Shown here one piece after another: positions 1-34,944 of a stretch of DNA of 35,743 bases. Location: NCBI GenBank assembly GCA_036277235.1, contig DASUNJ010000528.1:1-35743 (forward strand), given 5' to 3'. Below the pieces are notes generated by a model. That model worked only from the letters and a program-made list of their open reading frames with translations, did no database searches and was not told where the DNA came from. The stretch's first letter is position 1. The number at the start of each line of letters is the position of its first letter. The position numbers and the translations under genes are program-made. This DNA is from Thermoanaerobaculia bacterium. GTDB lineage: Bacteria; Acidobacteriota; Thermoanaerobaculia; Multivoradales; UBA5704.

Positions 1-625
1 GCCGCGCCGCCGGCTCGCCGACCTTGGCAATCAGGTGGGCGCGCACGATCTCGAAGCTGTGGTTGAGACTCAGGTTGAGAGCCATCAGCTTGCCCCAGGC
101 CAGCGAATCGACGGGCGTCCACGGACGGGGCTCGATCCCGAGGATCGTGAGCTCGACCGGCAGCCGGCCGCGGTGGGCCGAGATGTAGGCGTTCACCCCG
201 TCGGCGTAGGCGGTGAGCAGGGCGCGGGTGGCAGGAGAGAGCGCCTGCCAGTCCCGCTCGGCGGCCTGCACGACGCCGAAGGTGCGCATGATCTTGTCGA
301 TTTCGAGGGCGCCTGCGCCGAAGACCGCGGAGAGCTCCCCGCGGCCGGCGTAGGCATTGAGCTGCATCTGCCAGAGCCGGTCCTGGGCGTGCACGTACCC
401 CTGGGCGAAGAAGAGGTCATGGGCGCTTTGCGCGTAGATGTGGGGGATGCCAGGCTCGACCCGCACGATCTCGACCGGCGCCTCGAGGCCGGGAACCGTG
501 AGGCGGCCTTCGACCTCAGGATAAGCGCGGCGCACGAGCCAGAAGAAGACCAGGCCGAGGATCACGATCAACCCCACCAGGACGACGGCAGTCCAGCGCA
601 GAAGCTTCCACAGGCGGGATTTCAT
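1..625 (-). CDS. Penicillin acylase / N-acyl-homoserine-lactone acylase family (Ntn hydrolase, PvdQ-like) protein. Only the N-terminal ~208 codons are present; the 3' end lies beyond the window start.
   Basis: Not in the ORF track because no stop codon falls in the window. My translation of the minus strand from the ATG at 625-623 gives MKSRLWKLLRWTAVVLVGLIVILGLVFFWLVRRAYPEVEGRLTVPGLEAPVEIVRVEPGIPHIYAQSAHDLFFAQGYVHAQDRLWQMQLNAYAGRGELSAVFG... It has an N-terminal hydrophobic signal/anchor followed by the GIPHIYA...DLFFAQGYVHAQDRLWQM block I recognise as typical of the penicillin-amidase (S45) family. The ATG overlaps the TGA of the upstream NRPS (ATGA at 622-625), which implies translational coupling. 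Confidence 0.8.
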   Translation of the reverse strand, partial: MKSRLWKLLRWTAVVLVGLIVILGLVFFWLVRRAYPEVEGRLTVPGLEAPVEIVRVEPGIPHIYAQSAHDLFFAQGYVHAQDRLWQMQLNAYAGRGELSAVFGAGALEIDKIMRTFGVVQAAERDWQALSPATRALLTAYADGVNAYISAHRGRLPVELTILGIEPRPWTPVDSLAWGKLMALNLSLNHSFEIVRAHLIAKVGEPAAR

Positions 626-3600
626 TTCGAACGAGTCTCCTTGGCGAGCTCCAGGGTCAAGGACCGGTCGATGCAGAGGCGCAGCCGTTCGGCCAGAGCC
701 TGTACGTGCGGCTCGGCGAGGGCGCTGACATGATCGCCCGGAACGGTCTCGATATCGACCGGCCAGGGCGAGAGCGCCCCCCAGCCGTGCGTGGGGTCGT
801 CGGCGGTGTCGGTCTCGGCGGGCAGGAAGAGGGTGATCTTCCCCGGGTAGAGACCCGGCCGGTAGCGCCGGAAGGCGCGCACGTTGGTCTTGAACACGGC
901 GAGGAGCCGGCGGAGCGACTCGGGGCCGGCTTTCGCGCCGAACGGGGTGTCCTTCAGCCCGGAGAGCAGGCGGAGCGCCTGTTCCTCGGACGAAAGCCCG
1001 CGGAGGTTCTCGGCGGTGAGGCCGAGATCGAGGTTCCAGAGACGTTCCAGGTAGTCGGCGATTTCCAACAGCCAGGGAGTGTCGTCGCCGCCCGTGCTCT
1101 CATTCTCCTCGTTCTGGTCCGCCGCCGGCCGGGGCCATGGTCCGGGGGTGGAGTCGACGATCGCCAGGAGCGCCACCTCGCGGTCCTCGGCGGCGAGCTG
1201 CCGCGCGACCTCGAAGGCCACCGCGCCGCCCAGCGACCAGCCGCCGATGTGGTAGGGACCGGCGCTGGCCGCGGTGATCTCGGCGCGGTAGCGCGCCGCC
1301 ATCTCCTCGATGCTGTTGAACGGCACCTCTCCGGGCCCGAGCCCGCGCGACTGGAGGCCGTAGAAAGGCTGGTCCGGCCCCAGGTGACGGGAGAGGGCCT
1401 GGAAGGCGAGGACGTCGCCGCCCGCCGGGTGGACGCAGAAAAACGGCGGGCGGGAGCCGGCCGGCTGGAGCGCCACCAGCGAAGCCGTGGCCGGAGGGGG
1501 CGACTCGCCCCGCGGGGCGCCGCGCGCACGCAGACGCTGCTCCAGCAGCGCCCGCTCCTCGGCCGAGAGCCCGGCGCGGCGCGCGGCCAGCCGGGCTCCG
1601 CGGTCAGCAGGTGCGGATGGTTTGTTCGAAGTGTCCACGGGCTGGGTCTCCACGAGCTTCGGCGGTCCGATCTCGGCCGGCAGCGCGGAGAGCCGGACCT
1701 CCGGATCCGCCGCCACCGCCTCGAGAAGCCGGGTGAGGTGCTGGAGCATCCGGCCTACCGTCGCTCCCTCGAACAGCTCGGTGCTGTATTCCGCTTGCAG
1801 GGTGAGGCCTTGCGGCACGTCGACGATCCCGAGGGTGAAATCGAACTGCGAGGTGGCGGAGTGCACCTCGACCGGTTCGACGGCGAGACCGGCAAAGCGG
1901 AGCGGCTCACCGGAAAGGTTCTGGACCGAGAGCATGACCTGGACCAGCGGGGTGCGGCTCTTGTCCCGCGCCAGACCGAGATCCTCCACCAGACGCTCGA
2001 AGGGGAGGTCCTGGTGGGCGTAGGCGCCGAGGGCGGAGTCGCGAGCCCGCTGCAGAAGCTCCCGGAAGGTGGGATCGCCGGAGAGATCGAGCCGGAAGGG
2101 CAGGACGCCGACGAAGAAGCCGAAGATCCCCTCGGTCCCCGGAACGTGCCGGTTGGCGGCCGGCGAGCCGAGGACCAGGTCCGTCCGGCCCGTGTAGCGG
2201 CCGAGGAGGGCGGCGAAGGCGGCGAGGGCGGTCATGAAGAGCGTGCTCCCCTCGCGCCGTCCCAGCTCCTTGGTCTGCGCCGCGACCTCCGGCGGCAGCG
2301 GCAGGTAGCGGGCGGCTCCCCGGAAGGTCGGGCGCAGGGGGCGCGGCCGATCGGCGGGGAGGTCGAGCACCGGCGGTGCTCCGGCGAGCTGGCGGCGCCA
2401 GTAGTCGAGCTGCGGTGCGAGCCGCTCGTCGGTGAGCTCGCGGCGCTGCCAGACGGCGAAGTCCGCGTACTGGAGCTCCGGCTCCGGGAGAGCCGAAGGA
2501 AGGGCGTGGGTGAACGCAGGGTAGAGGACGCTCAGCTCGCGTTCGAGAAGGTCGACCGACCAGCCGTCGACGATGATGTGGTGGAAGGTGAGGAGCAGCC
2601 GGTGCTCCTCCTTCTCCAGGCGGAGCAGGCGAGCCCGCCAGAGCGGCCCCGCCGCGAGGTCGAAAGGCTCCCGCGCCTCCGCCTCCGTCGCGCGCCGGGC
2701 CTCGTCCTCGCGGCGCGCCGGCGGCAGGGCGCTCAGGTCGGCCAGGGGGAGCGCGAGGTCCGAGGGCTGCGCGATCCGCTGCCGGAGCCCCTCCGGGCCG
2801 TTGAAGAAGGTGGTGCGCAGAGAGGCGTGGCGGCGCGCGATCTCGGAAAGCGACCGGGCGAGCGCTGCCGGCCGCAGCGGGCCGCGCAGCCGGAGGGGGT
2901 TCGGGACGTTGAGGACCGAGCCGCTGCGGTCGAGCTGGTGGAAGTACCAGAGCCGCTCCTGGGCGGCGGCGGCCGGGGCGTCGGCCCCCGTTCCTTCCGG
3001 CCTGGCAGGTTCGACGGGGGGGAGCGGCTGGGCTCCAGGAACCCGCAGCATGCGCTCGATCTCCGCTGCCAGCGTGGCCACGGTCGGATTGGCGAAGATA
3101 ACGCGCAGCGGGAAGTCGACTCCGGTCACGGCCCGCAGGCGGGCCAGCACGCGGATGGCGAGCAGGGAATACCCGCCGAGGGTGAAGAAGTGGTCGTGCA
3201 GGCCGATCGTGCTGCGGCCCAGAGCCTCGGCCCACAGCCCGGCTACCAGCTCCTCGAGCGGGGAGCGCGGCGGCTCCGCGGCTGTCTGAGAGGGGGCGGC
3301 GGCCGGTGGGGGGAGGGCACGGTGGTCCAGCTTTCCGTTCGGGGTCAGCGGGAGGGCGGGGAGCACGACGATGGCCGCGGGGACCATGAAGTCCGGCAGC
3401 TTCTCCCCAAGCCAGGAGAGCAGGGCCCCGGTCTCCAACCCCTCCGCGGCGAGCACCACCCAGGCGACCAGGCGGACGTCCCCTGGACCGTAGGCGTGCG
3501 TGGCGACGACTGCCTGCTCGACCGCGGGGTGCGAGGCCAGGGCGGTCTCGACCTCGCCCAGCTCGATGCGGAACCCGCGCAGCTTGATCTGTGCATCGCT

Positions 3601-6600
3601 GCGGCCGAGGTACTCGGTCTCGCCGTCCCGCCGGCAGCGCGCCAGGTCGCCGGTCCGGTACAGCCGGCCGCCCGGCTCGGCCGTGAAGGGATCGGGGACG
3701 AATCGCTCCGCCGTGAGGCCGGGGCGCCGGTGATAGCCCCGGGCGAGACCGCGGCCGGTGACGTACAGCTCCCCTGCGACTCCCAGGGGCACCGGCTCCC
3801 CATGCCCGTCCAGGATGTAGACCCGTGTGTTGTCGATCGGCCTGCCAAGGGCGGGGAGAGCCTCGCCCTGCCGCTCCGCCGGCGGCACCTCCGCTACGGT
3901 GGTCACCACGCTGTACTCCGAGGGGCCGTAGTGATTCATCAAGCGGAACGGCGCGCCGGCCGCGGGCCGCCGGTGCAGCCGGTCGCCACCGGTGATCAAA
4001 GCCCTGACGCGGAGATCGAGGCCGGGTGGGAGCGTCTCTACCAGGACCTCCTCGGCCAGGGGTGTCATCAGGAAGGTGAGGGTGATCCCCTGTTCGGCCC
4101 ACCAACGGACCGTCCGGACAGGAGAGAGCCGAGTCTCCTCGTCGGGGATGTGCAGGCTCGCTCCGGCCGCCAGGTAGGGCCAGAGCTCCCACACGGAAGC
4201 ATCGAACGCCGGGCTGGCGACCAGGGTGGCTCGATCCTCGGGGACCACTCCATAGAGGCTCTGGTGCCAGCGCACCAGGTTCATCAGGCCGGCGTGCGGG
4301 ATCTCGACGGCCTTGGGCAGTCCGGTCGAACCGGAGGTGTAGATCATGTAGGCCAGGTTGCCGGGGAGCAGCGCCGGGACCGTCAAGTCCCCGGTCGCTG
4401 CTTCAAGATTCCCCTCGTCCTCGTGCGGGAACAGGCAATGGATCCCCCGCTGTGCGGCATGATCGGCCGCGGGTCCGCGGTGCGCGAGGAGCACCGTCAC
4501 TTGCGCATCCTCCAACTGGTACGCCAGCCGCTCCGCGGGATGAGCGGGATCGAGGGGCACGAAGGCGCCGCCGGCCTTGAGCGCGGCGAGGGCTGCAATG
4601 GCGAGCTCCGGGGAGCGCTGGAGACAGATGCCAACCCGGACCTCCGGTCCGCAGCCCAGGGCGCGCAGGGCATGGGCGAGCCGGACCGCCCGCCGGTCGA
4701 GCTCGCTGTAGCTCAGCCTCCGCCCGCCGGCGGCCACCGCCAGCGCCTCCGGTGCCCGCCGGGCGTGCTCCGACACGAGCTCGTGGACGAACAGCCCGGA
4801 CGCGGGCCATGCACGGCGGTCGTTCCACTCCCGTACCAACTGGTGCCGTTCCGCCGCGGAGAACAGGTCGATCTCCGGCAGGGGGACGTCCGGGCGGGCG
4901 GCCACCGAGGTGAGCAGGTGGGTGAAGTGAGCGGCCCAACGCTCCACCGTGGAGCGATCGAACAGGTCGGTGCGGAATTCGAAATCGGCGACCAGCGTGT
5001 CGCCCCGGAGATCGAGCCCGAGCGTCAGATCGAATTTGGCCGTATGGTTCTCGACCGGCAGGGGGGTGTACGACAGCCCCGGTGCCAGCTCGCGGGCGGT
5101 CTCATCCACGCCGAGGACGAAGGAGACCTGGAAAAGCGGGCTGCGGGCCAGGCTGCGCTCCGGCTGCAGCTCCTCGACCAGGCGCTCGAAAGGCACGTCC
5201 TGGTGCGCGTAGGCGGCGAGCGCGGTCTCTCTCACGCGGGAGATCAGGGCGCTGAAGGCTGGGGCGCCGGCGAGGTCCACGCGCAGGACCAGGGTGTTGA
5301 CGAAGAAGCCGGCGAGCCCTTCGCTCTCGGCGCGTCCGCGGCCGGCGACCGGCGAGCCGAGCAGGAGGTCCTTCTCGCCCGTGATCCGCTCCAGCAGGGC
5401 CGCGAACCCCGAGAGCAGGACCATGAACAGCGTCGCCCCCTGGTGCTGGGAGAGGGCGCGGACCCCGGCCGTCACGGCCGCCGGCAGCGAGGTCAGGAAA
5501 TGGGCGCCGCGCGAGGTCTCGACCGGCGGGCGCGGCCGGTCGGTCGGCAGGTCGAGGGCCTCGGGAGCGCCGGCGAGCTGCTGGCGCCAGTATGCGAGCT
5601 GCTCTTCCAAGACGGGACCGTCGAGCCAGCGCCGCTGCCAGGCGGCGAAGTCGGCGTACTGGGTCGCCGGCTCCTGCAGAGGCGACGGCAGGCCGGCCGC
5701 GAAGGCCTGGTAGAGGGCGGACAGCTCGCCCAGGAGGAGGTTGATCGACCAGCCGTCCCCGGCGACGTGGTGCACCGTCATCAGAAGGTGGTGCGCCTCG
5801 GCTCCGAGGGTCAGCAGCCGGGCGCGGAAGAGCGGACCCGTCGCGAGGTCGAACGGGCTCGCGGCGTCCTCGTCGGCCAGCCTGCCGGCCTCCGCCTCTC
5901 CGGCTTGCGGAGGGAGGGTGGAGAGGTCGATCCGGGGGAGGAAGAAGCCGCCCGGCGGCGCGACGGTCAACCGCGGCTCTCCGCTCTCCGCATCCACCGC
6001 GAAGGTGGTGCGCAGGACCTCGTGCCGGCGCTCCACCTCGCCCAGGGCGCGCTCCAGGAAGGCCGCGGCAAGGGGGCCGCGGATCAAGCGGGGGAACGGC
6101 AGGTTGTAGACCGGCGAGCCGGGTTCGAGGCGGTCGAGGAGCCAGAGCCGCTGCTGGGCGAAGGAGAGGGGACGGTTCTCCCGGTCCGCCAGGGGCTCGA
6201 TCGGGGCCGGCGGAAGGGCCTCCGCAGGCAGGTGCCCCAGGGCCGAAAGGGCCGCCGCCAGGGCCGAGACGGTCGGCGCGGCGAAGAGCGTGCGCAGAGG
6301 CACCTCGATGCCGAGCGCCACCCGTATCCTCGACACCACCCGAGTAGCGAGAAGGGAGTGGCCGCCCAGCTCGAAGAAGTTGTCGTGCGGGCCGGGCAGC
6401 TCGTCGCGCCTCAGTACCTCGGCCCAGATGCCGGCGAGGAGCTCCACGAAAGGCGCGGCGGCGCCCAGGGGTATCGCCGACGTGGCCGATGCGGGGGGCT
6501 CCGCCGGTCCGCTTTCGGGGACGGGCAGGGCCTTGCGGTCCACCTTCCCGTTGGGCGTCAGCGGCATTGCGTCGAGCAGGGTGAAGGAGGACGGCACCAT

Positions 6601-9600
6601 GAACTCGGCGAGCCGGACGCGCAGGTGCTCGCACAGCTCGCCGGGCGTCGGGGCCGGCTGGCCGGCGGGCACGACGTAGGCCGCGAGAAAGCGGTCGCCG
6701 CCCGGCTCGCCGCGCGCCACCACCACCGCCTCGCGCACTTGCGGGTGCGCCTCCAGGGCGGTCTCGATTTCCCCCAGCTCGATCCGGAAGCCGCGCACCT
6801 TCACCTGATTGTCGAGCCGGCCCATGTACTCGATCCGGCCGTCGGGGAGAAGGCGCCCGAGGTCGCCGGTGCGATACAGGCGGGCTCCCGGCTCCAGGGG
6901 GTCCGGCACGAAGCGCTCGGCCGTCAGCTCGGGCCGGCCGAGATAACCCCGCGCCAGGCCGGCGCCGCCCAGGTAGATCTCCCCCGGCACCCCGACGGGC
7001 ACCAGCTCCAGGTGCCGGTCGAGCAGGCGAGCCCAGGTGCCGGCGATCGGCCGCCCGATCGTCGGCTCGCGCCGGCTCCCGCGCTCCACGGTCTCGAAGG
7101 TCGAGTAGGTGGTGTCCTCCGAAGGGCCGTACAGGTTCCGCACCCGTTCGGCGCCGATCGCATAGAGGGCCTGGGCCAGGGAGCCCTTGAGCGGCTCGCC
7201 CGCCAGGTTCACCGTCCGCACCCTGTCCGGGAGCGTCTGCACCAGCTCCAGCAGGGCGGAGACCGCCGAGGGCACGGAGTTGATCAGGGTGACCTCCCCG
7301 GCCGCGGGCAGCTCCGGCAGCTCCAGGACGTTGCCGGCGAGGACCACCTGCCCCCCGCACGCCAGGGGCACGAACAGCTCGAAGACCGAGAGGTCGAAGG
7401 AGATCGAGGTCGAGGCCAGGACCGCCGCCAGCTCCGCCGGGGTGAACACCTCGTGCGCCCAATGGATGAAGGCCACGGCGCTGCGGTGCTCGATCGCCAC
7501 CGCCTTGGGACGGCCGGTCGAGCCCGAGGTGTAGATCAGATAGGCGAGGTTGCCGGGGAGGGCCAGGATGGGCTCAGCTTCCTCCTCCATCCTGTCCGGC
7601 TCGCCGTCGAGCACCAGCACCCGCGCCCGTGAGGTTGGCAGGCGCGAAGCGAGGGCCGTCTCGGTGATCAGGACGGCGGCGTCGGCGTCCTCCAGCATGA
7701 ATCCCAGCCGCTCGCGCGGGTAGTTGGGGTCGAGCGGCACATAGGCGCCGCCGGATTTGAGGATGCCCAGGAGGGAGACCACGAGAGACGGCGACCGTGA
7801 CAGGCAGACTCCGACCCGGACCTCCGGCCCGACCCCGAGCGCGGCCAGTCTCCGGGCCAGCTCGCCGGCGCGCAGGTCCAGATCCCGGTAGGTGAGCCGC
7901 TCGCGGCCGGCGACCAGGGCGGTCGCCTCGGGCGTGCGCGCGGCCTGGGCGGCCACGAGGTCGTGCATGCACGCTGCTATTGGAGCCAGCGGAGCCGGCG
8001 GACCCGGCTCGTGCCACTCTCCGCGGATCTGCCAGCTCTCCCCGGCCCCCAGAAGCGGCAGTCGGGACACCGGCCTCCCGGTTCCCTCCGCCACCAGGCT
8101 GGACAGCAGGGCGAGGAAGGAGCGCCCGAGCCGTGCCACCGTGGGCGCGTCGAAAAGGTCGGTCGAGTACTCCAGGAGAGCGGTCAGGCTCTCCCCCTGG
8201 CCATTGACGAAGAGCGAGAGGTCGAACTTGGACGTTCCGGTGTCGATGCGCAGCAGGTCGCAGTTCAGGCCCTGGGCGAGCTCGCCGTCTTGCAGGGGAT
8301 CGAGCGAGAACATCACCTGGAAGAGCGGGCTTCGCGACAGGTCGCGCGCCGGCTGCAGCTCCTCGACCAGGCGCTCGAAGGGAAGCTCCTGATGGGCGTA
8401 GGCCGCGAGCGCCGACTCGCGCACCTGGGCCGCGAGGGCGCGGAAGGGCGGGTCGCCCGCCAGGTCGGCGCGCAAAGCGAGGGTGTTGACGAAGAAGCCG
8501 AGCAGGCCTTCGCTTCCCGCCTCCCTGCGGTTGGCGACCGGCGAGCCCACCACCAGGTCCGTCTGGCCGCTGAAGCGGCCGAGGAGCGCGTAGAAGGCCG
8601 CCAGGGTGGTCATGAACAGGGTCGAGCCTTCGCTCCGGGCGAGGCTGCGCAGCCCGGCGGCGAGCTCGGCCGGGAAGGCGAGCGGAAGCACGGCGCCGCG
8701 GAAGCTCTGCACCGGCGGCCGCAGCCGGTCGGCCGGCAGCTCGAGGGCGGCGGGCGCTCCGGCCAGGCGCTGCCGCCAGTAGGCGAGCTGCGCCGCCATG
8801 AATTCCTCGGACAGCCGGTACCGCTGCCAGACGGCAAGGTCGGCGTACTGGACCGCCAGCTCGGGGAGAGGCGACGGCCGCCCGGCGCGGAAGGCGCCAT
8901 AGAGCGCGCCCAGCTCGCGCCGCAGGACGCTGACCGACCAGCCGTCGAAGGCGGCGTGGTGGCAGGAGAAGACCAGCAGGTGCTCCTGCTCGTCCAGCTG
9001 CAGGAGGGCGGCCCGCGCCACGGGGCCGCGGACGAGGTCGAACGGGCGTCGCGCCTCCCGCGCGATCTGCCGGTCCGCCTCGGCTGCGGCGGTCGCGGAG
9101 GGCAGGCCGGAGAGGTCGACCCGGGGCAGCCCGGGGGCGTGAAACGGCGCCACGACCTGGAGCGGCTCATCATCCTGCCCCTCGGCGAAAGTGGTGCGCA
9201 GGACCTCGTGCCTCCGGAAGACCTCGTCCAGGCTGCGCTCGAGGAGCCCCAGGTCGAGCGGGCCGGTGAGGCGGAACGCCAGGGGCAGGTTGTAGACCGG
9301 CGAGACCGGATCCAGGCGGTGGAGGAACCAGAGCCGTTCCTGGCCGAAGGAGAGGGGCAGCGCCCGGTCCCGCGGGACCGGCACCAGCGGAGCCGGCTCG
9401 GGGCCGCCGGCCACGGCGAGCCGCGCTTCCTTGATGCGCCGCGCCAGCGCAGACAGGATGCGGGTCTCGAAGGCGGCCCGCACCGGGAGATCCACCCCGA
9501 AGGCGGAGCGCACCCGCGCCAGCACCTGGCCGACGAGCAGCGAGTGCCCGCCGAGATCGAAGAAATCGTCGCCGGTGCCGATCTCCGTCCGGCCGAGGAC

Positions 9601-12600: not shown

Positions 12601-14364
12601 CGCGAGGCGCGATGGCTGCGACGGCCGATCGGCGAGAGCGCGCTCCACCTGCTCCGCCAGGGCGGCGACGGTGCTCGCCTCGAACACCGCCGAGGGCGGC
12701 AGGCCGACTTCGAGCGCCGCCTGCACCCGCGCCTGGATCTGGGCTGCGAGCAGCGAATCGCCGCCCAGGTCGAGGAAGCTCTCGTCGATCCCCACCCGCC
12801 CGCGCCCGAGCGTTTCTTCCCAGATTCCGGCCAACAGCTCCTCGGTCGGATTGCGCGGAGCCTGCGCGTCCCCGTCGGCGCTTCCCATCGGCCCCGGCGG
12901 GAGCGCGCGCTGGGCGAGGGCCTGGCGATCCACCTTGCGGTTGGGGGTCAAGGGGAGCGCGGGGAGCTCCAGGAAGAGGGCCGGTACCATGTGCGCGGGC
13001 AGCCGCGAGCGCAGGAAGGCCCGCAGCCCGGCGCCGGAGGCCTCTCCCACAAACCAGGCCACCAGGCGCTTCTCGCCCGTGCCGTCTCCCCGCGCCACCA
13101 CCACCGCCTCGCGCACGCCTGGATGGGCGGCGAGGGCCACCTCGATCTCCCCCAGCTCGACGCGAAAGCCGCGCACCTTCACCTGGTGGTCGAGCCGGCC
13201 CAGGTATTCGATCCGGCCGTCGGGCAGGGCGCGCCCGACGTCGCCGGTGCGGTAAAGGCGCGCGCCGGGCGTCTCCGCCCCCGGGTCGGGCACGAAGCGC
13301 TCCGCCGTCAGCTCGGGCCGGCCGAGGTAGCCGCGGGCCAGGCCGGCGCCGCCGAGGCAGATCTCCCCGTCGAGGAGACGGACCCAGGTGCCGGCGACCG
13401 GCTTGCCGATGGTCGGCTCGCGCGGGCTCCCGCGCTCCACCACCTCGAAGGTCGAGTAGGTCGTGTCCTCCGACGGGCCGTAGAGGTTCAGCACCCGCTC
13501 CACCTGCTCGGCACCGGTCGCGTAGACCGCCTGGGCCAGGGAGCCCTTGAGCGGCTCACCCGCGAGATTGACCGTCCGCACCCCGGCCGGGAGGGTCCCG
13601 GCGCGCACCAGCTCGGTCATGGCCGAAGGGACGGTATTGACCAGGGTGACCTCCCCGGCCGCCGGGAGCTGGGGCAGCTCCAGGACGTCGCGGGCGAGGA
13701 CCACCCGGCCGCCGCAGGCCAGGGGCACGAACAGCTCGAAGATCGAGAGGTCGAAGGAGATCGAGGTCGAGGCCAGGACCGCCGCCAGCTCCGCCGGGGT
13801 GAACACCTCGTGCGCCCAATGGACGAAGGCCACGGCGCTGCGGTGCTCGATCGCCACGGCCTTGGGGCGGCCGGTGGAGCCCGAGGTGTAGATCAGGTAG
13901 GCGAGGTTGCCGGAGAGGGCGCGGACGGGCTCAGCTTCCTCCTCCGTCTCATCCGGCTCGGCATCGAGCAGCAGCACCCGCGCGTTGGAAGCAGGCAGGA
14001 GCGCGGCGAGAGCCGGCTCGGTGACCAGGACCGCGATGCCGGCGTCCTCCAGCATGTAGCCGAGGCGCTCCTGCGGATAGTCGGGATCGAGCGGCACGTA
14101 GGCGCCGCCCGCTTCGAGGATGCCCAGGAGGGTCGTCACCAGCGCCGGCGACCGGCGCAGAAAGACCCCGACCCGCACCTCCGGCCCGACGCCGAGCGCG
14201 GCCAGCCGCCGGGCCAGCCGGCCGGCTTCGAGGGCCACCTCGCGATAGGTGAGGCGTCTGTCGCCGGCCACCAGGGCCACGGCCGCCGGGGTCCGCGCGG
14301 TCTGAGCGGCCACGAGATCGTGCAGGCACGCCGCCGCCTCCCGGGCGTCAGGCCGGCTGGGCAA
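622..14364 (-). CDS. Non-ribosomal peptide synthetase with four modules plus an extra terminal C domain and a thioesterase: A-T-C-A-T-C-A-T-C-A-T-C-TE
   Basis: 4580-codon ORF. Motifs read from the translation:
- Four A domains: [60 protein letters not shown]; GFR(I/V)E(L/P)GE(I/V)E; (G/R)KVDR or GKLDH.
- Four carrier domains: LGGDSL, LGGHSL, LGGHSL, LGGYSL.
- Four C domains: [36 protein letters not shown].
- C-terminal thioesterase: GGWSLGG ... GDH.
Module length leaves no room for E or MT domains. The putative TTG start at 14364 is preceded by GAGAGGA and overlaps the upstream stop by 17 nt; the exact start codon is uncertain. By-eye Stachelhaus positions for A1 and A3 give D-L-F-N-N-A-L-T-Y-K, which I recall as an Ala code (tentative). 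A4 looks Leu-like (DAW..G.VVK) and A2 looks hydrophobic or aromatic (very tentative). Confidence 0.97.
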   Translation of the reverse strand: [4580 protein letters not shown]

Positions 14365-17300
14365 CGGAATCCTCTCGCAATTCGCAGGCGGCCCGCTCGC
14401 GCTCGATCTGCTCCATCAGGAGATCCTCTACCGTCATGGCGAGGTCGGCCACGGTGGTGTGCTCGATCAGGTCGAGCAGGGGAACCTCGACGTCGAAGTC
14501 CCTCTGCAACCGGCTCATCACCTGCGGCAGGAGCAGGGAGTGGCCGCCCAGCTCGAAGAAATCGTCGTTCGCCCCCACCCGGTCGACGCCGAGAACCTCG
14601 CACCAGATCGCCGCCACCCCCTCCTCGGCCGGCGAGGCGGGGGCCTCGTACTCGGCGGCGAGAGCCGGACGGGAAGCGTCCGGGGCGGGGAGGGCCCGGC
14701 GGTCGACCTTGCCGCTGCCGTTGATCGGCAGGGCGGGAAGGGTCAGGTAGAGGGCGGGCACCATGTGGTCGGGGAGGCGCTCCTTGAGGAAGGGGCGCAG
14801 GTCGCCGACCTCCGTTTCCCGGCCCGAGTGGGGCACGGCGTAGGCCACCAGGCGCAGCTCGCCCGGCCGGTCCTCGCGCGCCACGACCGCGACCTCGCGC
14901 AGCGCGGGGTGCAGCGCCAGCGCGGCCTCGATCTCTCCCAGCTCCACCCGGAAGCCGCGGATCTTCACCTGGCGGTCGGTGCGGCCCAGGAACTCCAGAT
15001 CGCCGGAAGGGAGCCAGCGCACCAGGTCGCCGGTGCGATAGAGGCGCGCGCCGGAAACGCCCGCCGCCGCGGCCCAGGGATCGGGGAGAAAGCGCTCGGC
15101 GGTCAGGTCGGGGCGGCCCAGATAGCCGCGCGCCACGCCCGCTCCACCCAGGCAGAGCTCGCCGGGCACGCCGACCGGCACCGGCTCCTGCCGCAGGTCG
15201 AGGACGTAGGCCCGGTAGCCTGCGAACGGCCGCCCGAGGGGCGCCTCGCGCATGCCGTCCGTGGAGCCGAGCCAGGGCGCGAGGTCGCCGATCGTGGCTC
15301 CGATGGTGCACTCGGTCGGGCCGTAGGTGTTCCACAAGTGCACCCGCGTGCCGAGATGCCGGCGCCAGGCCTCCAGCCGCTCCGGCAGGGGCCGCTCGCC
15401 GCCGATGATGACCCGCCGCAGGGCGGGGGGCCAGTCGATGTCCTCCGTCAGATCGGCCGCCAGCACGTGCCAGTAGGCGGTGGGCAGGGTGAGGAGGGTG
15501 ATCCCCCGCGCCCGGCAGGCGGCGAGGAAGTCGGCGCTCGACCGCATCATCGCGTCGCTGCGCAGCACCAGCGTGCCGCCCGTGGACAGGACCGGGTAGA
15601 TCTCCTCGGCGCTGTTGTCGAAGCTGATCGAGGCGAACTGCAGGACGCGGTCGGCGGGGCCGATGGCGTACTCCAGGCAATCGCCCGCGATGTAGCTCGC
15701 GAGCGATCCGTGCGACACCATCACGCCCTTGGGCTTGCCCGTCGAGCCGGAGGTGTAGATGACGTAGGCGAGCCTCTCGAAGTCGGGATCATCCGCCAGC
15801 GGGCCGTCGGGGCAGGCGGCGATCCGGTCGCGGTCCGCTTCCAGGCAGACGACGCGCACGCCGGAGAGCGCCTCCTCGCCGAAGGCGCCGAGCAGGCGCT
15901 GCTCGGTGACCAGGACCGGGACTCCGGAGTCGGCCACCAGGAAATCCAGGCGCTCGCGGGGGAGGGCGGGATCCATCGGCACGTAGGCGCCGCCCGCCTT
16001 GAGGATGGCGAAGAGGGCGGCGATCATCGCGGGCGAGCGCTCGAGGCTGAGGGCCACCGGCATCTCCGGCCTCACCCCCAGACGGCGCAGGTGGTGGGCG
16101 AGCCGGTTGGCCCGGCGGTCGAGCTCCTCGTAGGTGATCTCCTGCTCGCCCTGCTCTCCCGCCACCAGGGCCACGGCGCCGGGGGTCGTCCGGGCCTGCC
16201 GCGCGAAGGCGAGGTGGACCGGAAGCTCCGGGGTGACGGACTTTTCCGTCGACCACGAGAGCACCTGCGCGGCCGCCGCCGGGTCGGCGAGCGGCAGCTC
16301 GTCCAGGGTGCGTTCGGGCGCCGCGGCCACGCCGCCGAGCAGGACCTCGAGCTGGCCGAGCAGGCGCTCGATCGTCGCCTCCTCGAACAGCCGGGCGTTG
16401 TAGATCATGAGCGCCGCGATCCCTTCGTCTCCCGGCTCCAGGACCAGGCAGAGGTCGAAGATCTCCGTCGCCAGCTGGCTGTTGAGGCCGGCGCGCGAGG
16501 CCCGCAGGGTGAGGCCGGAGAACTCCAGCTGCGGCTCCGGCAGGTTCTGGACCTGGAACATCACCGAGAAGGGTTGCTGCCCGTGGCCCGGGTTCGTGGC
16601 CTGGAGCACGGTTTCGAGCGGCAGGTCCTGGTGGGCGTAGGCGCCGTTCGCCACCTCCCGCACCTGGCCCAGGAGCTCGCGGAACTCGCGGTCGCCAGCG
16701 GCCTGCGTGCGCAGCACCAGGGTGTTGAGGAAGAAACCGATCAGCCCTTCGATCTCGCTGTGGGTGCGGTTGGCGATGGGGACGCCGACCAGCAGGTCCT
16801 CTTCCCCGCTGTAGCGGTAGAGCAGGGTCTTCCAGGCGGCGAGAAGGAGCATGAAGAGAGTCGCCCCCTCGCGGTCGGCGAGGGCCTTGAGGTCCGCGGC
16901 GAGGGCGGCGGGCAGGAGGCGGGTGGCCCCGCCGGCGAGGAATCCCTGTCCGGACGACCGCGGCCGGTCGGTCGGGAGACGCAGGGGCGGCGGCGCTCCG
17001 GCGAGCTGCCCGCGCCAGTAGCCGAGCTCGTTCTCCAGCGTCGCGCCCTGGAGGTGCTCGCGCTGCCAGGCGGTGAAGTCGGCGTACTGGATGGGGAGCT
17101 CGGGCAGCGGCGAGGGGCGGCCGGCCGCGAACGCCTGGTAGAGGGCGGCGATCTCGCGCACCAGCACCACCCACGACCAGCCGTCGCCGATGGTGTGGTG
17201 CATGTTGAACAGGCCCACGTGCTCCCGCGGCCCGGCGACGAGCAGCGTCGCGCGGAAGATCGGCCCGCGCGCCAGATCGAACGGGCGATTGTGCGCCGCC

Positions 17301-20300
17301 GCCTCCAGCCGTGCCATTTCCGCCTGGCGCGCCGCGGCGGGCAACCCCGCCAGGTCGACGACGGGGAAGGGGAAGGGGGCGGGCGGCAGGATGCGCTGCT
17401 GCGGCATCCCCATCTCGGCCACGAACACGGTGCGCAGCGCTTCGTGGCGGCGCACGAGCTCGTCCAGGCAGCGGCCGAGGACCGGGATCGAGAGCGGGCC
17501 GCTCACTTCGACGCGGTTGAACAGGTTGTAGATCGGGGTCCCCGGGTCGAGCTGGTCGAGGAACCACATCCGCTCCTGGGAGAAGGAGAGCGGCGCGCGG
17601 TCCGCGGCCCCGTCCCGCCGCGGGATCCGTTGGCGGGGCTCCTCGTCGGCTGTTCCAGGAATCGCCCCGCTGGCGAGGGTCTCCCTGACGACCGTGGCCG
17701 CCTGGGCCAGCGTGACCGCCCCGAGGAGCGGCTGGAGCGGCAGCTCGGCCCGGAAGGTGTCGCGCAGCCGCGAGGCGACCTGGGTGGCGAGCAGCGAGTG
17801 GCCGCCCAACTCGTAGAAGTTGTCGTCCGCCCCCACTTCGGCCACGCCCAGCACGTCCTGCCAGACGTAGGCGATCTCCCGCTCATAGAGGTCGCGGGGA
17901 GCGACGTAACCGGTGCGCAGGGCGGGCCTTGCCTTGCGCGCAGGGGCCGCCGGCTGGCTGGTTGAGACGACCGCGGTGGCCCCGGGCGCATCGATCCAGT
18001 GGCGCCGGCGCTCGAAGGGATAGGTCGGCAGCGGCACCCGGCGGCGCCCCTGGCCGGCGTAGAAGCCCTGCCAGTCGATGCGCGCGCCGGAGACCCAGAG
18101 GCGGCCGAGCGCGCCGAGCAGGGCCGCCAGGTCGGAGCTGGTGTCCTTGGGCTGGCGCATGGCGGCGGCGACCGGGCGCTCTCCGGGGGAGGCCAGGTGC
18201 CAGCGGATCAGAGGGGAAAGGCCGGCGCCGGGGCCGACCTCCAGGAGGGCCATGCCGGGCTCGGCGCGCAGCGCCTCGACCCCGTCCGAGAAGCGCACCG
18301 GCTGGCGCATGTGGCGCGCCCAGTAGCCGGGATCGGTGACCTCCCCGGCGCCGATCCAGGTGCCGGTGGTGCTCGACACGAAGGGGATCTCGGGGGCCTT
18401 GGGCCCGACCGCCGCGACCCGCTCCTGGAAGGGCGCCATGGCCGGCTCGGTGCGCGGCGAATGGCCGGCGAAGGCGACCTGGAGGGGCATGGCGGCCACT
18501 CCCTCGCCGGCGAGGCGGGACGCAAGCTCCGCGAGCTCCGCGGCCGGGCCGGCGATGCTCACCAGCGAGGGCGCGTTGAGCGCCGCAAGATGGACCTCGC
18601 CGCTCAGGAAGGGGGTGATCTCCGACTCGGAGAGCGGCACTGCAAGCATGGTGCCCTCGCTGCCGATCTGCTCGATCAGGCGCCCGCGCTCGGCCACGAG
18701 CTCCAGGGCGGCCTCGAAGGAGAAGACGCCCGCCAGGACGGCCGCCGCGTATTCGCCGAGGCTGTGGCCGAGCATGGCCTTCGGCCGCACGCCCCAGGAG
18801 AGGAGCAGGCGCGCCAGGGCGACCTCGACGGCGAGCAGGGCCGGCTGGGCCACGGAGGTCCGCGCCAGATGGCTCGCGGCCTCGGCTTCGGCCTCGGCGT
18901 TGGCAGCCGGGTAGAGGACGTCGTGGCGCAGGTCGAGCCCCAGGCGCGGAGCGAGCAGGGCCGCGGCGCGGTCGATCTCGTCCCGGAAAGCCGGCTCGGA
19001 CTCGTACAGGTCGCGGCCCATGTTGACGTGCTGGGCCCCCTGGCCGGGGAAGACGAAAGCGACCGGCCGGCCGGACTCCGGCCAGTCCTCGGAGGTTCCG
19101 GTCAGGAGCCGCACCGGGTCGCCCGCGGCGAGGCAGGCCGCGGCGTCCCCCGGGTCGCGGGAGACCAGGGCCTGGCGGGCGCCGAAAGCCTGGCGGCCGG
19201 CGGCCAGGGTGTACGCGGCATCGGCCAGATCGAGCTCCGGTCGGTCGGCCAGGTGACTTGCCAGCCGCTCGCCAGCCGCCGCCAGGGCTTCCGGAGTGCG
19301 GGCCGAGAGGGTCAGGAGCTGCCAGGGCCGGGTGCGGAGAGCCGGCTGAGGGGCCGGGGCCTCTTCGAGGACGACATGGGCATTGGTGCCGCCGAGCCCG
19401 AAGGAGTTCACCCCGGCGCGGCGCGGCGCGTCCCCGGCCTGGTTGGGCCAGGGGGCGAGCGCGGTGTTGACGTAGACCGGGGAGGACGCGAAGTCGATCC
19501 GCGGGTTCGGCTGCTCGTAATGGAGGCTGGGCGGGACCTCGCCGTGCTCCACGGCGAGCACGGTCTTGATCAGCCCGGCCACGCCGGCCGCCACGTCCAG
19601 GTGGCCGACGTTGCTCTTCAGCGAGCCGATGGCGCAGAAGCCCCGGCGGTCGGTGTACTCGCCGAAGGCCCGGGTCACCGCCCGGATCTCGATCGGATCG
19701 CCGAGGGCCGTGCCGGTGCCATGGGCCTCGAGGTAGCCGATCGTCGTCGGATCGACCCCGGACATGGCCAGGGCCTCGCTGATCACCGCCGCCTGCCCCT
19801 CGACTCCCGGGGCCGTGAAGCCGACCTTCACGCTGCCGTCGTTGGTGACCGCCGAGCCCAGGATGACGGCGCGGACCGTGTCGCGGTCGGCGAGCGCATC
19901 CTCCAGGCGCTTGAGGACGACGAGCCCGACGCCGGAGCCGAAGATGCTCCCCTGGGCCGCGGCGTCGAAGGCCCGGCAGTGCCCGTCCGGCGAGACCACC
20001 GACCCCGGCACGTAGCGGTAGCCGAGACCGGCGTTCGCCTGGATCGAGACGCCGCCGGCCAGGGCGAGGTCGCACTCCTCGTTGAGCAGGGACTGGCAGG
20101 CGGTGTGAACGGCGACCAGAGAGGTCGAGCAGGCGCACTGCACGCTGTGGCTCGGCCCGCGCAGGTTGAGCTTGTAGGAGATCCGGGTGGCGAGCGCATC
20201 CGAGGCGTTGCCCAGGACCACCTGCAGAGGATCGGCGCCCGCGGTCAGCGGATTGCCGATCAGGTGGAAGAGGAGATAGGTCGAGAGCGTGGCCCCGGCG

Positions 20301-23205: not shown

Positions 23206-23655
23206 CTAGTCCGCGGCGCTCGTCACGAGCACCTCGCCATATCGCCGCTGCGCGATCCCCTTGCCGCGGTGGACCAGGACGGCTTCGATGTACTCAGGCC
23301 TGAACCAGTCCTTGATGAATTTCTCCACGTCGGTCCGGTCGAAGTCCTTGCAGGAGTAGACGTCGATGCTGATGAAGCGGTTGTTGGCCGAGGTATGGAT
23401 CTGGATGCCGCTCTCGATGATCGGAACCCAGCCGCTGTAGCCCGGCTTGCCCGGGAACGTCGTTTCGCAAGTCTTGAAAATGTAGGGTTGCGTCTGCTTG
23501 GTCATCTTGAGGTGCACGCAGATCTTATCAAGGAACTCATACCCCTTGTCGAGATCGCAACAGACGTCGGGGGCACAGCCAAAGCAATCGATGATCAGTT
23601 GGAATCCCCAGGCGTCGTCGAGCTTGGTCTGGGAACTCAGTTGCAGGTTCGACAT
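23206..23655 (-). CDS. S-adenosylmethionine decarboxylase-fold (SpeD/SpeH-like) pyruvoyl-dependent decarboxylase proenzyme homologue; substrate unknown
   Basis: The track ORF (23206..23775) starts at a GTG with no RBS. The in-frame ATG at 23655 is preceded by AAGGGAGGA with a 3-nt spacer (ATC), giving a 149-aa product typical of the family. The translation matches the small bacterial AdoMetDC consensus as I remember it:
- WGFQLIIDCFGC....L.D
- GYSGWVPIIESGIQIHT, containing the Glu-Ser self-cleavage site and the His five residues later
- ISIDVYSCKDFD, the catalytic Cys
- VLVHRG. Confidence 0.8.
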   Translation of the reverse strand: MSNLQLSSQTKLDDAWGFQLIIDCFGCAPDVCCDLDKGYEFLDKICVHLKMTKQTQPYIFKTCETTFPGKPGYSGWVPIIESGIQIHTSANNRFISIDVYSCKDFDRTDVEKFIKDWFRPEYIEAVLVHRGKGIAQRRYGEVLVTSAAD

Positions 23656-23782
23656 GATTCCTCCCTTTGATGGCGGATAGTGCAAATAAGAGTCAACCCC
23701 ACCGGACCTCTCGCTGGATTCGCGAGGCCCGGGCCCATCCTTACTAAGTGCTTTGACACAGGGCAGAAGGGACACATGCGCA

Positions 23783-33628
<9,846 letters not shown>

Positions 33629-34921: not shown

Positions 34922-34944
34922 CGGAGAGAGGAACCGGAACAGGG

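What the first reader, a model, noticed from the sequence alone, without database searches (positions are those of the whole stretch)
622..2975. Terminal T-C-TE: an intact condensation domain with no downstream A-T, fused through a ~75-aa linker to the thioesterase
After the fourth carrier (FFTLGGYSL) comes a complete C domain (QERLWYFHQL ... FHHIIVDGWS ... roughly 1690-2975). Then comes a Pro/Arg-rich linker containing LSAEERALLEQRLRARG with no GGxS carrier motif, and then the TE (GGWSLGG, Ser codon 1234-1236; GDH). A C domain with no carrier-bound acceptor is the arrangement known for condensation with free amines, as in VibH with norspermidine or the terminal C domains of rhabdopeptide/xenortide-type systems that use decarboxylase-derived amines. 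The operon encodes a decarboxylase-fold enzyme, so an amine-capped product is a coherent hypothesis. The retained TE is then unexplained. Alternatively this C is the one missing from the N-terminus, a permuted module acting in trans.
Basis: partly seen in the sequence, partly recalled or inferred. Interest (0 to 1): 0.7.

Follow-up and report, generated by a model that had tools for sequence, protein, structure and literature searches.

The report
Carrier-less condensation–thioesterase NRPS terminus
The last enzyme of this peptide assembly line really does end carrier – condensation domain – thioesterase with no second carrier, but the "linker" is a docking hairpin belonging to a thioesterase that is a separate protein in most relatives, so this is a gene fusion within a widespread, uncharacterised chain-release design of soil Acidobacteriota.

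Summary
On the minus strand, T4 (3061-3249) is followed by a full-length condensation domain with an intact HHIIVDGWS motif (1684-2979), a 79-aa gap with no carrier, and a type-I thioesterase (682-1446; Ser codon 1234-1236).

The gap is not a degenerate carrier. It is disordered spacer, a ~30-aa helix-turn-helix hairpin, then more spacer. That hairpin is the N-terminal extension of a large family of stand-alone thioesterases. In five split loci the synthetase ends C-hairpin-stop and the TE gene starts with a second hairpin. The window carries the fused form.

The set terminal C + TE + PvdQ-like acylase is conserved in all 9 places examined, the window included, from Thermoanaerobaculia-type Acidobacteriota.

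The catalytic His motif is kept in 14 of 14 terminal C domains, so the domain probably works. With no tethered acceptor, capture of a soluble amine is the best guess. It fits the conserved SAM-decarboxylase-family gene, the neighbouring methionine-salvage genes and the glidonin C-A*-T-TE precedent, which also explains the retained TE.

The "moved N-terminal C" idea is weakened: a relative keeps a decayed C stump at that N-terminus. Trans complementation is not excluded. I rate this a new variant of a known kind; the mechanism is unproven.

The parts
3061..3249 (-). Fourth and last carrier domain (T4) of the 4580-aa synthetase. Phosphopantetheine Ser codon at 3166-3168 (FFTLGGYSL).
   Evidence: Pfam PP-binding, E 4.4e-13. 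Motif positions.
1684..2979 (-). Terminal condensation domain. Full length, LCL-like, with no A or T domain after it.
   Evidence: Pfam Condensation E 7.8e-99, profile positions 5-443 of 456. Best solved-structure matches are Txo2 (4e-90), Txo1 and TycC6. It is 71-74% identical to its orthologues in L085, L002 and L003, the same range as the in-line C domains.
2557..2583 (-). Catalytic motif HHIIVDGWS of the terminal C domain.
   Evidence: Read from the translation. HHxxxDGWS is kept in 14 of 14 terminal C domains of the family.
1612..1683 (-). Disordered Pro/Ala-rich spacer after the C domain.
   Evidence: AlphaFold2 pLDDT 39-50 and no secondary structure. No Pfam hit.
1519..1611 (-). Helix-turn-helix hairpin (PADRGARLAARRAG-LS-AEERALLEQRLRARG). 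This is the docking element of the TE family.
   Evidence: AlphaFold2 predicts helices at 554-567 and 570-584, pLDDT about 50-70. The same motif forms the N-terminus of more than 100 stand-alone TE homologues. A second copy ends the synthetase in the split loci. hhalign against carrier domains gives probability 0.12%.
1480..1518 (-). Second short disordered spacer before the TE.
   Evidence: AlphaFold2 pLDDT about 41.
625..1479 (-). Thioesterase domain of type-I kind. Ser in GGWSLGG (codon 1234-1236), Asp in LLAIVDSTPG (1141-1170), His in VPGDHVS (724-744). Stop codon at 622-624.
   Evidence: Pfam Thioesterase at 682-1446, E 1.7e-29. Solved-structure matches are all integrated TE domains: 7crn, AB3403, NocB, EntF, Vlm2 and Pks13. 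The catalytic residues are conserved in alignment A1.
1..625 (-). 5' part of a membrane-anchored penicillin-amidase (PvdQ-like Ntn acylase) gene. Its ATG (623-625) overlaps the synthetase stop codon. The gene runs off the window.
   Evidence: The translation matches the acylases that follow the TE in L002 and L003. Weak NCBIfam PvdQ hit. Penicil_amidase follows the TE in L001, L002, L003, L164, L165 and L166, and the same acylase N-terminus follows the TE in L085 and L170.
12640..14364 (-). N-terminal A1-T1 of the same synthetase, with no condensation domain in front. The preceding protein (14348-20680) ends in A-T.
   Evidence: Domain maps. Junction DNA read. This is the partner puzzle to the 'extra' terminal C: 6 C domains and 6 amino-acid A domains in total.
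23206..23775 (-). AdoMet_dc-family (pyruvoyl decarboxylase) gene. The true protein is probably about 149 aa. It is a possible source of an amine or of decarboxylated SAM.
   Evidence: Pfam PF02675, E 4.4e-15, but below the NCBIfam cut-off for SAM decarboxylase. A 74%-identical homologue sits next to a P1-like FAAL-NRPS-PKS gene and a DUF5916 gene in L167 and L168.

Best explanation
What it is (shown):
- The region is the end of a hybrid PKS-NRPS assembly line from a Thermoanaerobaculia-type acidobacterium.
- The last carrier, T4, is followed by a catalytically intact LCL-type condensation domain.
- After that come a disordered spacer, a ~30-aa helix-turn-helix hairpin, and a type-I thioesterase.
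- The hairpin is the docking device of a thioesterase that is usually a separate protein. In split relatives the synthetase ends C-hairpin-stop, and the overlapping TE gene starts with a second, homologous hairpin.
- The window carries a fusion that retains one hairpin. It was probably made by recombination between the two hairpin repeats (inferred).
- The set terminal C + docked or fused TE + PvdQ-like acylase is conserved.

How it most likely works (inferred):
- T4 delivers the finished peptide to the donor site of the terminal C domain.
- No acceptor carrier exists in cis, so the acceptor is most likely a soluble amine.
- That amine plausibly comes from the decarboxylated-SAM/polyamine branch that the cluster family encodes.
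- The chain then leaves as a C-terminal amide.
- The TE is kept beside T4 by fusion or docking. It is a second, hydrolytic or cyclising exit that clears chains the C domain does not capture, as shown for glidonin synthetase module 13.
- The exported lipopeptide is later deacylated by the acylase.
For: Architecture and absence of a carrier.

Fusion versus split:
- More than 100 stand-alone TE homologues (47-74% identity) start with the hairpin.
- Stop codons and duplicated hairpins were verified in L002, L003, L085, L164 and L170.
- Fused forms appear.
- The motif LAARRAGLS is shared by the C-terminal and the N-terminal hairpins of close relatives.

The C domain is likely catalytic:
- HHxxxDGWS is kept in 14 of 14 terminal C domains.
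- Orthologue identity of 71-74% equals that of the in-line C domains.
- The domain is full length and LCL-like.

The TE is competent and of type-I kind.

Amine and SAM context:
- The AdoMet_dc gene is syntenic with P1-like and DUF5916 genes in relatives.
- Aldolase_II + ARD + HAD, a methionine-salvage trio, lie beside the set in L002, L165 and L166.

Precedent that explains a retained TE: glidonin C13-A*-T13-TE, where C13 condenses free putrescine and the TE is hydrolytic but dispensable for release (PMC10587159).

The acylase follows the TE in all 9 places examined, the window included.
Against: - No product is known and no amine has been identified.
- No aminopropyl-transferase or other obvious amine-forming partner is visible in the window.
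- The residues that bind putrescine in glidonin C13 (S, D, E) are T, Q, E here. The Q also occurs in about 9% of in-line C domains.
- The TE is conserved and tethered as tightly as a primary release enzyme would be.
- This model does not explain the missing condensation domain at the P2-to-P3 junction.
- The AdoMet_dc homologue also occurs in a RiPP-like cluster, so its role may be unrelated to chain release.
Confidence: 0.4

Rival explanations
1. Trans complementation. The terminal C domain supplies the condensation that is missing at the junction between the preceding protein (which ends A-T) and this synthetase (which starts A-T). It would take the lipo-chain from the upstream carrier as donor and Ala-S-T1 as acceptor. 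The TE then releases from T4.
For: - Exactly one A-T lacks a C domain and exactly one C domain lacks an A-T: 6 C and 6 amino-acid A domains.
- In all 8 family loci examined besides the window, the last synthetase starts with an A domain or with a dead C stump.
- T|A junctions are rare in about 160 background loci: 3, against 53 T|C.
- The catalytic motif is conserved.
Against: - L085 keeps a decayed C remnant at the N-terminus together with the terminal C. The terminal C therefore pre-dates the loss and had a function of its own.
- T4 is fused directly upstream of this C domain and would compete as donor.
- The tail of the upstream protein (LLMEQIERERAACELREDSVAQPA) does not resemble the hairpin partner motif.
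- What precedes the A-starting synthetases is known only for the window and L085.
Confidence: 0.2
2. Non-condensing platform. The terminal C domain no longer forms a bond. It serves as the scaffold that holds the docked TE, and perhaps recruits a tailoring enzyme such as the cluster's P450, next to T4. This is how the X domain of glycopeptide synthetases works. The TE does all the release.
For: - T-(C-like)-TE with no carrier is the glycopeptide A-T-X-TE order (established knowledge).
- The TE is type-I like and is tethered by fusion or docking to the end of the C domain.
- A P450 gene belongs to the family's neighbourhood in L003 and in L167/L168.
- The terminal C domains share departures from in-line domains at otherwise conserved positions: Tyr25 (98% in-line) to Leu or another residue, and Ala30 to Pro in 14 of 14.
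Against: - X domains have lost the catalytic His motif. Here HHxxxDGWS is kept in 14 of 14 over 47-80% identity.
- The X domain structure 4tx2 is a much weaker match (5e-47) than LCL domains (4e-90).
- No P450 lies within the window.
Confidence: 0.2
3. Split termination module or head-to-tail iteration. The acceptor of the terminal C domain is an aminoacyl-carrier delivered in trans. This could be a stand-alone A-T outside the window, or the synthetase's own N-terminal A1-T1 on a second copy. The second case would re-feed the tetrapeptide for another round before the TE releases it.
For: - The C domain has every feature of an elongation domain.
- Subunits split between C and A exist in this lineage, and one (L055) carries the same hairpin after its terminal C domain.
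- A more distant relative, P0008, has C-T-TE without an A domain.
Against: - No orphan carrier or A-T gene lies in the window or in the flanks of the family loci examined.
- The N-terminus of A1 has no docking element.
- The model is purely topological speculation.
Confidence: 0.1
4. Artefact or decay. The fusion would be a sequencing or assembly error, or the cluster a dying pseudogene array.
For: - The window comes from a metagenome-type assembly.
- One module has lost its C domain.
- A1 carries a 10-aa deletion before motif A6.
Against: - The 4580-codon frame is open.
- There is only one hairpin between C and TE, so this is not a simple read-through of the split form, which has two.
- The fused form recurs in independent assemblies.
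- All catalytic motifs are intact.
- Repeats are at most 70% identical at DNA level.
Confidence: 0.03

Closest known systems
Glidonin synthetase GdnB termination module 13 (C13-A*-T13-TE), Schlegelella brevitalea (PMC10587159)
   Same: A terminal, catalytically intact C domain sits in the same module as a retained TE. In glidonin the C domain releases the chain by condensing it with a free amine, and the TE is hydrolytic but not the release catalyst. This is the only experimental precedent that accounts for both domains.
   Different: - Glidonin keeps an A-domain remnant and a T domain between C and TE, and these are needed for folding. Here both are absent and a docking hairpin stands in their place.
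- The putrescine-binding S/D/E residues are not matched (T/Q/E).
- The organisms and clusters are unrelated.
Glycopeptide antibiotic NRPS module 7, A-T-X-TE (X domain, e.g. Tcp12; PDB 4tx2/4tx3)
   Same: It is the only well-known T-(C-fold)-TE order without an intervening carrier. The C-fold domain sits between the last carrier and the TE.
   Different: - The X domain has a degenerate active site and recruits P450s.
- Here HHxxxDGWS is conserved in 14 of 14.
- Sequence similarity is far higher to elongation C domains.
- There is no P450 in the window.
Amine- or alcohol-capturing release C domains: VibH and VibF-C2 (vibriobactin), the terminal C of rhabdopeptide/xenortide synthetases, Bamb_5915 (enacyloxin)
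   Same: These are C domains with no tethered acceptor that off-load a carrier-bound chain onto a soluble nucleophile. The rhabdopeptide systems also use decarboxylase-derived amines. (From my own knowledge and the discussion in PMC10587159.)
   Different: - Those systems have no TE.
- VibH and Bamb_5915 are free-standing.
- VibH is not among the solved-structure matches at E<=1e-10.
Four-alpha-helix-bundle docking domains of trans-AT PKS subunit junctions (review PMC9113145)
   Same: [quoted passage not shown] Here each partner contributes a predicted helix-turn-helix.
   Different: - The known examples join PKS domains. A C-domain-to-TE junction in an NRPS has not been described.
- Here the two hairpins are homologous copies of one another.
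- Bundle formation has not been tested.
PvdQ and the fatty-acyl start of pyoverdine synthetase PvdL
   Same: An assembly line that starts with a fatty-acyl-AMP ligase module and is paired with a penicillin-amidase-family acylase. This implies an N-acyl group that is removed after export.
   Different: - The acylase match to PvdQ is weak (27.9 bits, against a cut-off of 950).
- Pyoverdine synthetases end in a canonical T-TE.

Membership tests
NRPS condensation domain (PF00668), LCL elongation type | Full-length match to the family profile | tested here: met
   E 7.8e-99, profile positions 5-443 of 456. Txo2, Txo1 and TycC6 are the best solved-structure relatives.
NRPS condensation domain (PF00668), LCL elongation type | Catalytic HHxxxDG motif | tested here: met
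   HHIIVDGWS at 2557-2583. Conserved in 14 of 14 terminal C domains of the family.
NRPS condensation domain (PF00668), LCL elongation type | Downstream A-T module that supplies the acceptor in cis | tested here: not met
   No AMP-binding or PP-binding match between the C domain and the TE. hhalign probability 0.12%.
Carrier (PP-binding) domain hidden in the linker | Four-helix carrier fold with a conserved GGxS serine | tested here: not met
   - No Pfam hit at E<=1.
- Profile-profile probability 0.12%.
- Only two helices are predicted.
- The Ser at the turn is replaced by Pro, Gly or Thr in homologues and is not an invariant column.
Type-I (integrated) thioesterase, PF00975 | Ser-Asp-His triad and similarity to integrated TE domains | tested here: met
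   - GWSLGG, LLAIVD and GDH are conserved.
- The best solved-structure relatives are TE domains of NRPS, PKS and FAS.
- A 44%-identical relative, P0229, is a canonical A-T-TE.
Glycopeptide X domain | Degenerate active-site motif (loss of HHxxxDG) | tested here: not met
   The motif is intact in all family members.
Glycopeptide X domain | Position between the last carrier and the TE | tested here: met
   Domain order T4-C-TE.
Glycopeptide X domain | Cluster-encoded P450 partners recruited by the domain | tested here: inconclusive
   No P450 in the window. A P450 gene lies in the neighbourhood in L003 and in L167/L168. Recruitment cannot be tested here.
Free-amine-accepting release C domain (VibH, glidonin C13, rhabdopeptide terminal C) | No tethered acceptor; terminal or free-standing position | tested here: met
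Free-amine-accepting release C domain (VibH, glidonin C13, rhabdopeptide terminal C) | Acceptor-pocket residues suited to an amine (S/D/E in glidonin C13) | tested here: not met
   The equivalent offsets from the catalytic His give T, Q, E. Lys-to-Gln at alignment position 380 is typical of the terminal C domains but is also seen in 9% of in-line C domains. The alignment to glidonin is by offset only, so this is a weak test.
Free-amine-accepting release C domain (VibH, glidonin C13, rhabdopeptide terminal C) | Amide-capped product; C-domain-dependent aminolysis | not testable with these tools
   Needs LC-MS and enzyme assays.
Helical-bundle docking domain pair | [quoted passage not shown] | tested here: met
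   Paired hairpins in L002, L003, L085, L164 and L170. AlphaFold2 predicts a helix-turn-helix.
Helical-bundle docking domain pair | Physical association of the two elements | not testable with these tools
   No multimer prediction or binding assay was available.

The most novel reading that the evidence does not exclude
The terminal C domain works head-to-tail with the C-less N-terminal A1-T1 of the same synthetase, or of a second copy. That would make a functionally circularly permuted module. It would either couple the upstream lipo-chain to Ala-S-T1 in trans, or re-feed the T4-bound tetrapeptide for programmed iteration, with the hairpin-tethered TE deciding when to release. Such condensation-domain-driven, non-colinear or iterative logic has not been described for bacterial NRPSs.
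Probability: 0.15. Interest if true: 0.8.

Novelty: new variant of a known kind. Interest (0 to 1): 0.55.

Why it matters
Textbook NRPS termination is T-TE, T-R or a lone terminal C. Here a catalytically intact C domain and a type-I TE sit together after the last carrier, with no carrier between them. They are joined either by fusion or by a pair of duplicated helical hairpins.

The design recurs in well over a hundred metagenomic sequences from soil Acidobacteriota, a phylum with almost no characterised natural products.

If the C domain caps chains with a soluble amine while the TE proofreads, this would be a minimal, portable "amine-capping" release unit for engineering, smaller than the glidonin module.

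The natural fused and split pairs also offer a ready-made docking hairpin for attaching a TE in trans.

The companion puzzle, a mid-pathway module that has lost its C domain in two lineages yet remains open and intact, makes non-colinear chain transfer directly testable.

Tried and rejected
1. Cryptic carrier in the linker. Rejected by Pfam at E<=1, by hhalign (probability 0.12%), by the two-helix prediction and by the non-conserved Ser.

2. Assembly collapse or misjoin through repeated modules. Rejected: self-BLASTN gives at most 70% identity.

3. Simple read-through of a split gene pair. Rejected: split loci carry two hairpins and the window carries one.

4. Type-II (editing) TE identity. 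Not supported: all strong solved-structure matches are integrated TE domains, and a canonical A-T-TE relative exists.

5. X-domain membership. Rejected on the active-site motif.

6. VibH-like sequence affinity. Not found.

7. Evolutionary transposition of the N-terminal C domain to the C-terminus. Rejected because L085 keeps a C remnant in place.

8. The housekeeping reading of the AdoMet_dc gene. Weakened by synteny with the P1-like gene in L167 and L168. However, a homologue also sits in a RiPP-like cluster.

9. A single ancient clade of terminal C domains. Not resolved: in a neighbour-joining tree only the close relatives group, and monophyly was recovered in 2 of 20 bootstraps.

10. The scan of species-representative genomes with the upstream protein's C-terminus returned only generic NRPS loci at 58% identity or less.

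11. Literature string searches for T-C-TE or PCP-C-TE found nothing relevant.

12. The first attempt at the tree timed out.


Full report
**Layout of the window**

The window is 70-75% G+C. It carries one minus-strand assembly line:
- P1 (23783-33628): FAAL-T-C-A-T-KS-AT-KR-T.
- An AdoMet_dc-family gene (23206-23775).
- A DUF5916/CBM9 gene of lower G+C (20688-23102).
- P2 (14348-20680): KS-AT-T-C-A-T.
- P3 (622-14364, 4580 aa): A-T-C-A-T-C-A-T-C-A-T-C-gap-TE.

A 99%-identical copy of the small decarboxylase is recorded from a Thermoanaerobaculia MAG. The nearest relatives of the C-TE region carry the same label. The source is therefore a Thermoanaerobaculia-type acidobacterium.

Pfam places the domains as follows:
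- PP-binding at nt 3061-3249.
- A full-length Condensation domain at 1684-2979 (E 7.8e-99, profile positions 5-443 of 456).
- Thioesterase at 682-1446.

Nothing matches in the 79-aa gap, even at E<=1.

A profile of the gap region, built from 21 homologues, has 0.12% hhalign probability against a profile of the window's eight carrier domains. AlphaFold2 (mean pLDDT 87.7) predicts disorder, then two short helices joined by a turn, then disorder again. The serine at the turn is replaced by Pro, Gly or Thr in homologues.

Module repeats inside the window are at most 70% identical at DNA level, so a collapsed assembly is unlikely.

**What the 'linker' is**

I searched with the gap plus the TE. About 110 of the best 120 hits were thioesterase-only proteins of 300-380 aa, at 47-74% identity. 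Most begin, a few residues after the start codon, with ...DREARLAERRARLSAEQQALLEQRLR..., followed by SLVAIQPAG..FFCVHPAGGD.

In five loci I read the DNA: L002, L003, L085, L164 and L170.
- The synthetase ends with its terminal C domain, about 25 residues, a hairpin of the same kind (ARRQALLAERRARLAGA..LLESRLRRGK) and a stop codon.
- The TE gene starts beside that stop (overlapping it in L002, L003 and L085) and opens with a second hairpin.

So the split form has two homologous hairpins, one on each partner, and the fused form has one. Fused forms include the window, P0001 at 80%, P0002, P0003, P0005, P0012, P0016, P0022/L001 and L084.

Close relatives differ in state. L170 has an N-terminal hairpin almost identical to the window's, but it is split. 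The string LAARRAGLS occurs in both the C-terminal and the N-terminal copies of close relatives. This suggests that fusion arose by recombination between the two repeats. That step is inferred.

Similar motifs also open several C-starting single-module synthetases, and one follows a terminal C domain at a C|A subunit junction in L055. This fits a general docking role.

The closest described class is the four-helix-bundle docking pair of trans-AT PKS junctions (PMC9113145). That is a resemblance, not a tested membership.

**A conserved set**

The TE is followed by a penicillin-amidase-family gene in L001, L002, L003, L085, L164, L165, L166 and L170, and in the window itself. In the window the acylase ATG at 623-625 overlaps the P3 stop codon, and the gene runs off the window. 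Its N-terminus matches the L002 and L003 acylases and gives a weak PvdQ hit. Together with the FAAL start of P1, this suggests an N-acyl group that is removed after export. That is an inference by analogy with PvdL and PvdQ.

Other conserved neighbours:
- A methionine-salvage-like trio (Aldolase_II, ARD, HAD hydrolase) lies next to the set in L002, L165 and L166.
- The AdoMet_dc gene is syntenic with a P1-like gene, a DUF5916 gene, a P450 and an MFS transporter in L167 and L168.
- The decarboxylase scores below the curated cut-off for true SAM decarboxylase.
- A 77% homologue sits in a RiPP-like cluster. Its substrate is therefore open.

**Is the terminal C domain alive?**

- HHxxxDGWS is kept in all 14 terminal C domains collected, over 47-80% identity.
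- The terminal C domain is 71-74% identical to its orthologues in L085, L002 and L003. The in-line C domains are 65-76% identical across the same loci.
- Its best solved relatives are elongation domains (Txo2 at 4e-90, Txo1, TycC6). The glycopeptide X domain scores 5e-47 and starter or cyclisation domains score far lower. VibH does not appear at E<=1e-10.

Compared with 91 in-line C domains, the terminal ones share a few departures:
- The Tyr of the YN motif (98% of in-line domains) is never Tyr.
- The following Ala is Pro in 14 of 14.
- The Lys of the (A/S)KFD strand is Gln in 86%.

The last position corresponds by offset to one of the putrescine-contacting residues of glidonin C13, but the S/D/E pattern is not reproduced (T/Q/E). 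A neighbour-joining tree did not resolve all terminal C domains as one clade.

The TE has its Ser-Asp-His residues and matches integrated TE domains: 7crn, AB3403, NocB, EntF, Vlm2 and Pks13. A 44% relative is a plain A-T-TE.

**The companion anomaly**

P2 ends A-T and P3 starts with an A domain about 13 residues after its start. No condensation domain lies between them. Counting the whole line gives six C domains and six amino-acid A domains.

In L085, P2 and P3 are clearly orthologous to the window's: P2 C domain 71% and A domain 69%, and the C domains pair off at 66-72%. There the P3 orthologue begins with only the C-terminal half of a condensation domain (Pfam positions 207-283 of 456, no His motif). 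This stump is followed by an intact C-A linker, and the protein still ends in the terminal C domain plus the split TE.

The N-terminal C domain was thus lost in place, and the terminal C domain is older than that loss.

In the window, A1 is a paralogue of A3 (about 70% at DNA level). It has a 10-aa deletion before motif A6 but otherwise intact motifs.

In every other family locus examined, the last synthetase also starts with an A domain. What precedes those is outside the fetched DNA. T|A junctions are rare in the roughly 160 background loci I annotated: 3, against 53 T|C.

**Weighing the mechanisms**

A catalytically conserved C domain with no tethered acceptor needs an acceptor from elsewhere.

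Soluble amine capture is the best-supported option.
- Terminal or free-standing C domains that do this are known.
- The cluster family carries decarboxylase and methionine-salvage genes that point to decarboxylated-SAM or polyamine chemistry.
- Glidonin synthetase shows experimentally that a termination module can contain both an amine-condensing C domain and a TE that stays hydrolytic without being the release catalyst (PMC10587159).
- I give this 0.4, because no amine, no product and no pocket signature support it directly, and because it leaves the P2-to-P3 gap unexplained.

Trans complementation of that gap by the terminal C domain would explain both oddities at once. It is weakened by the L085 stump, by T4 being the cis donor, and by the lack of a matching docking tail on P2. 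I give it 0.2.

An X-domain-like, non-condensing platform that merely holds the TE is contradicted by the conserved His motif. It fits the shared N-lobe substitutions and the P450 in the neighbourhood. I give it 0.2.

A split termination module or head-to-tail iteration gets 0.1. An artefact gets 0.03.

**Verdict**

The architecture is an intact C domain plus a hairpin-docked or fused type-I TE, with no carrier. It is conserved with an acylase across Acidobacteriota. I could not find it described: the literature string searches were empty. I rate it a new variant of a known kind, of moderate to good interest. The mechanism is open and can be tested with a few mutants and LC-MS.

Noticed in passing
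window 14348-14364 (P2 stop and P3 start); L085 2735-3403: The protein upstream of the big synthetase ends A-T and the synthetase starts A-T, with no condensation domain between them. The orthologue in L085 retains only a decayed C-terminal half of a C domain at that spot. Chain transfer across this junction is unexplained.
   Followed up: partly
window 12916-14334 versus 6526-7977: The first A domain of P3 is a paralogue of the third (about 70% DNA identity, same Ala-like specificity residues). It carries a 10-aa deletion just before motif A6 (WVRLLD-GEICLGG, nt 13348-13386). In L085 the first A domain is a different type (53% identity).
   Followed up: partly
window 1-625, minus strand: A membrane-anchored penicillin-amidase (PvdQ-like) gene starts with an ATGA overlap on the synthetase stop codon and runs off the window. 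The same gene follows the TE in every relative examined.
   Followed up: yes
L002 13424-14696; L165 13694-15732; L166 13692-16017: Aldolase_II, ARD and HAD-hydrolase genes, a methionine-salvage-like trio, lie directly after the acylase in three relatives. This hints that the pathway produces methylthioadenosine.
   Followed up: no
window 23206-23775; L167 9084-9533; L169 1899-2351: The AdoMet_dc-family gene is below the curated cut-off for true SAM decarboxylase. It is syntenic with the P1-like gene in relatives, but a 77% homologue sits in a RiPP-like cluster (Lant_dehydr_C plus radical SAM genes). It may be a tailoring decarboxylase shared between cluster types.
   Followed up: partly
window 20688-23102: An 804-aa DUF5916/CBM9 gene of clearly lower G+C (about 65% against 73%) sits between the two PKS-NRPS genes. 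It is also next to the P1-like gene in L167 and L168. Its function is unknown.
   Followed up: no
window 28667-30175 (A domain of P1): This A domain has IAHASFLGE where FDxS is expected. The Asp that binds the alpha-amino group is missing, so it may activate something other than an alpha-amino acid. The starter C domain reads HHIVVDL (Gly replaced by Leu).
   Followed up: no
L055 8777-8960: A Thermoanaerobaculia synthetase subunit that ends in a C domain and is followed by an A-T-C subunit carries the same hairpin motif after its C domain (VAERRSALSDQKRAALQKLLQRKAK). The hairpin may therefore be a general docking device for C-terminal C domains in this lineage.
   Followed up: no
L166 16014-21137: A HAD/FkbH-like gene, 3-hydroxyacyl-CoA dehydrogenase, ACP, acyl-CoA dehydrogenase and a methyltransferase follow the set. 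This looks like a methoxymalonyl-ACP extender-unit set for the PKS modules.
   Followed up: no
window 33768-34948 and 34945-35736, minus strand: Two overlapping ORFs of about 210 aa have no family match. They lie upstream of P1, next to a hybrid histidine-kinase/response-regulator gene. The ORFs may be spurious in this high-G+C DNA.
   Followed up: no
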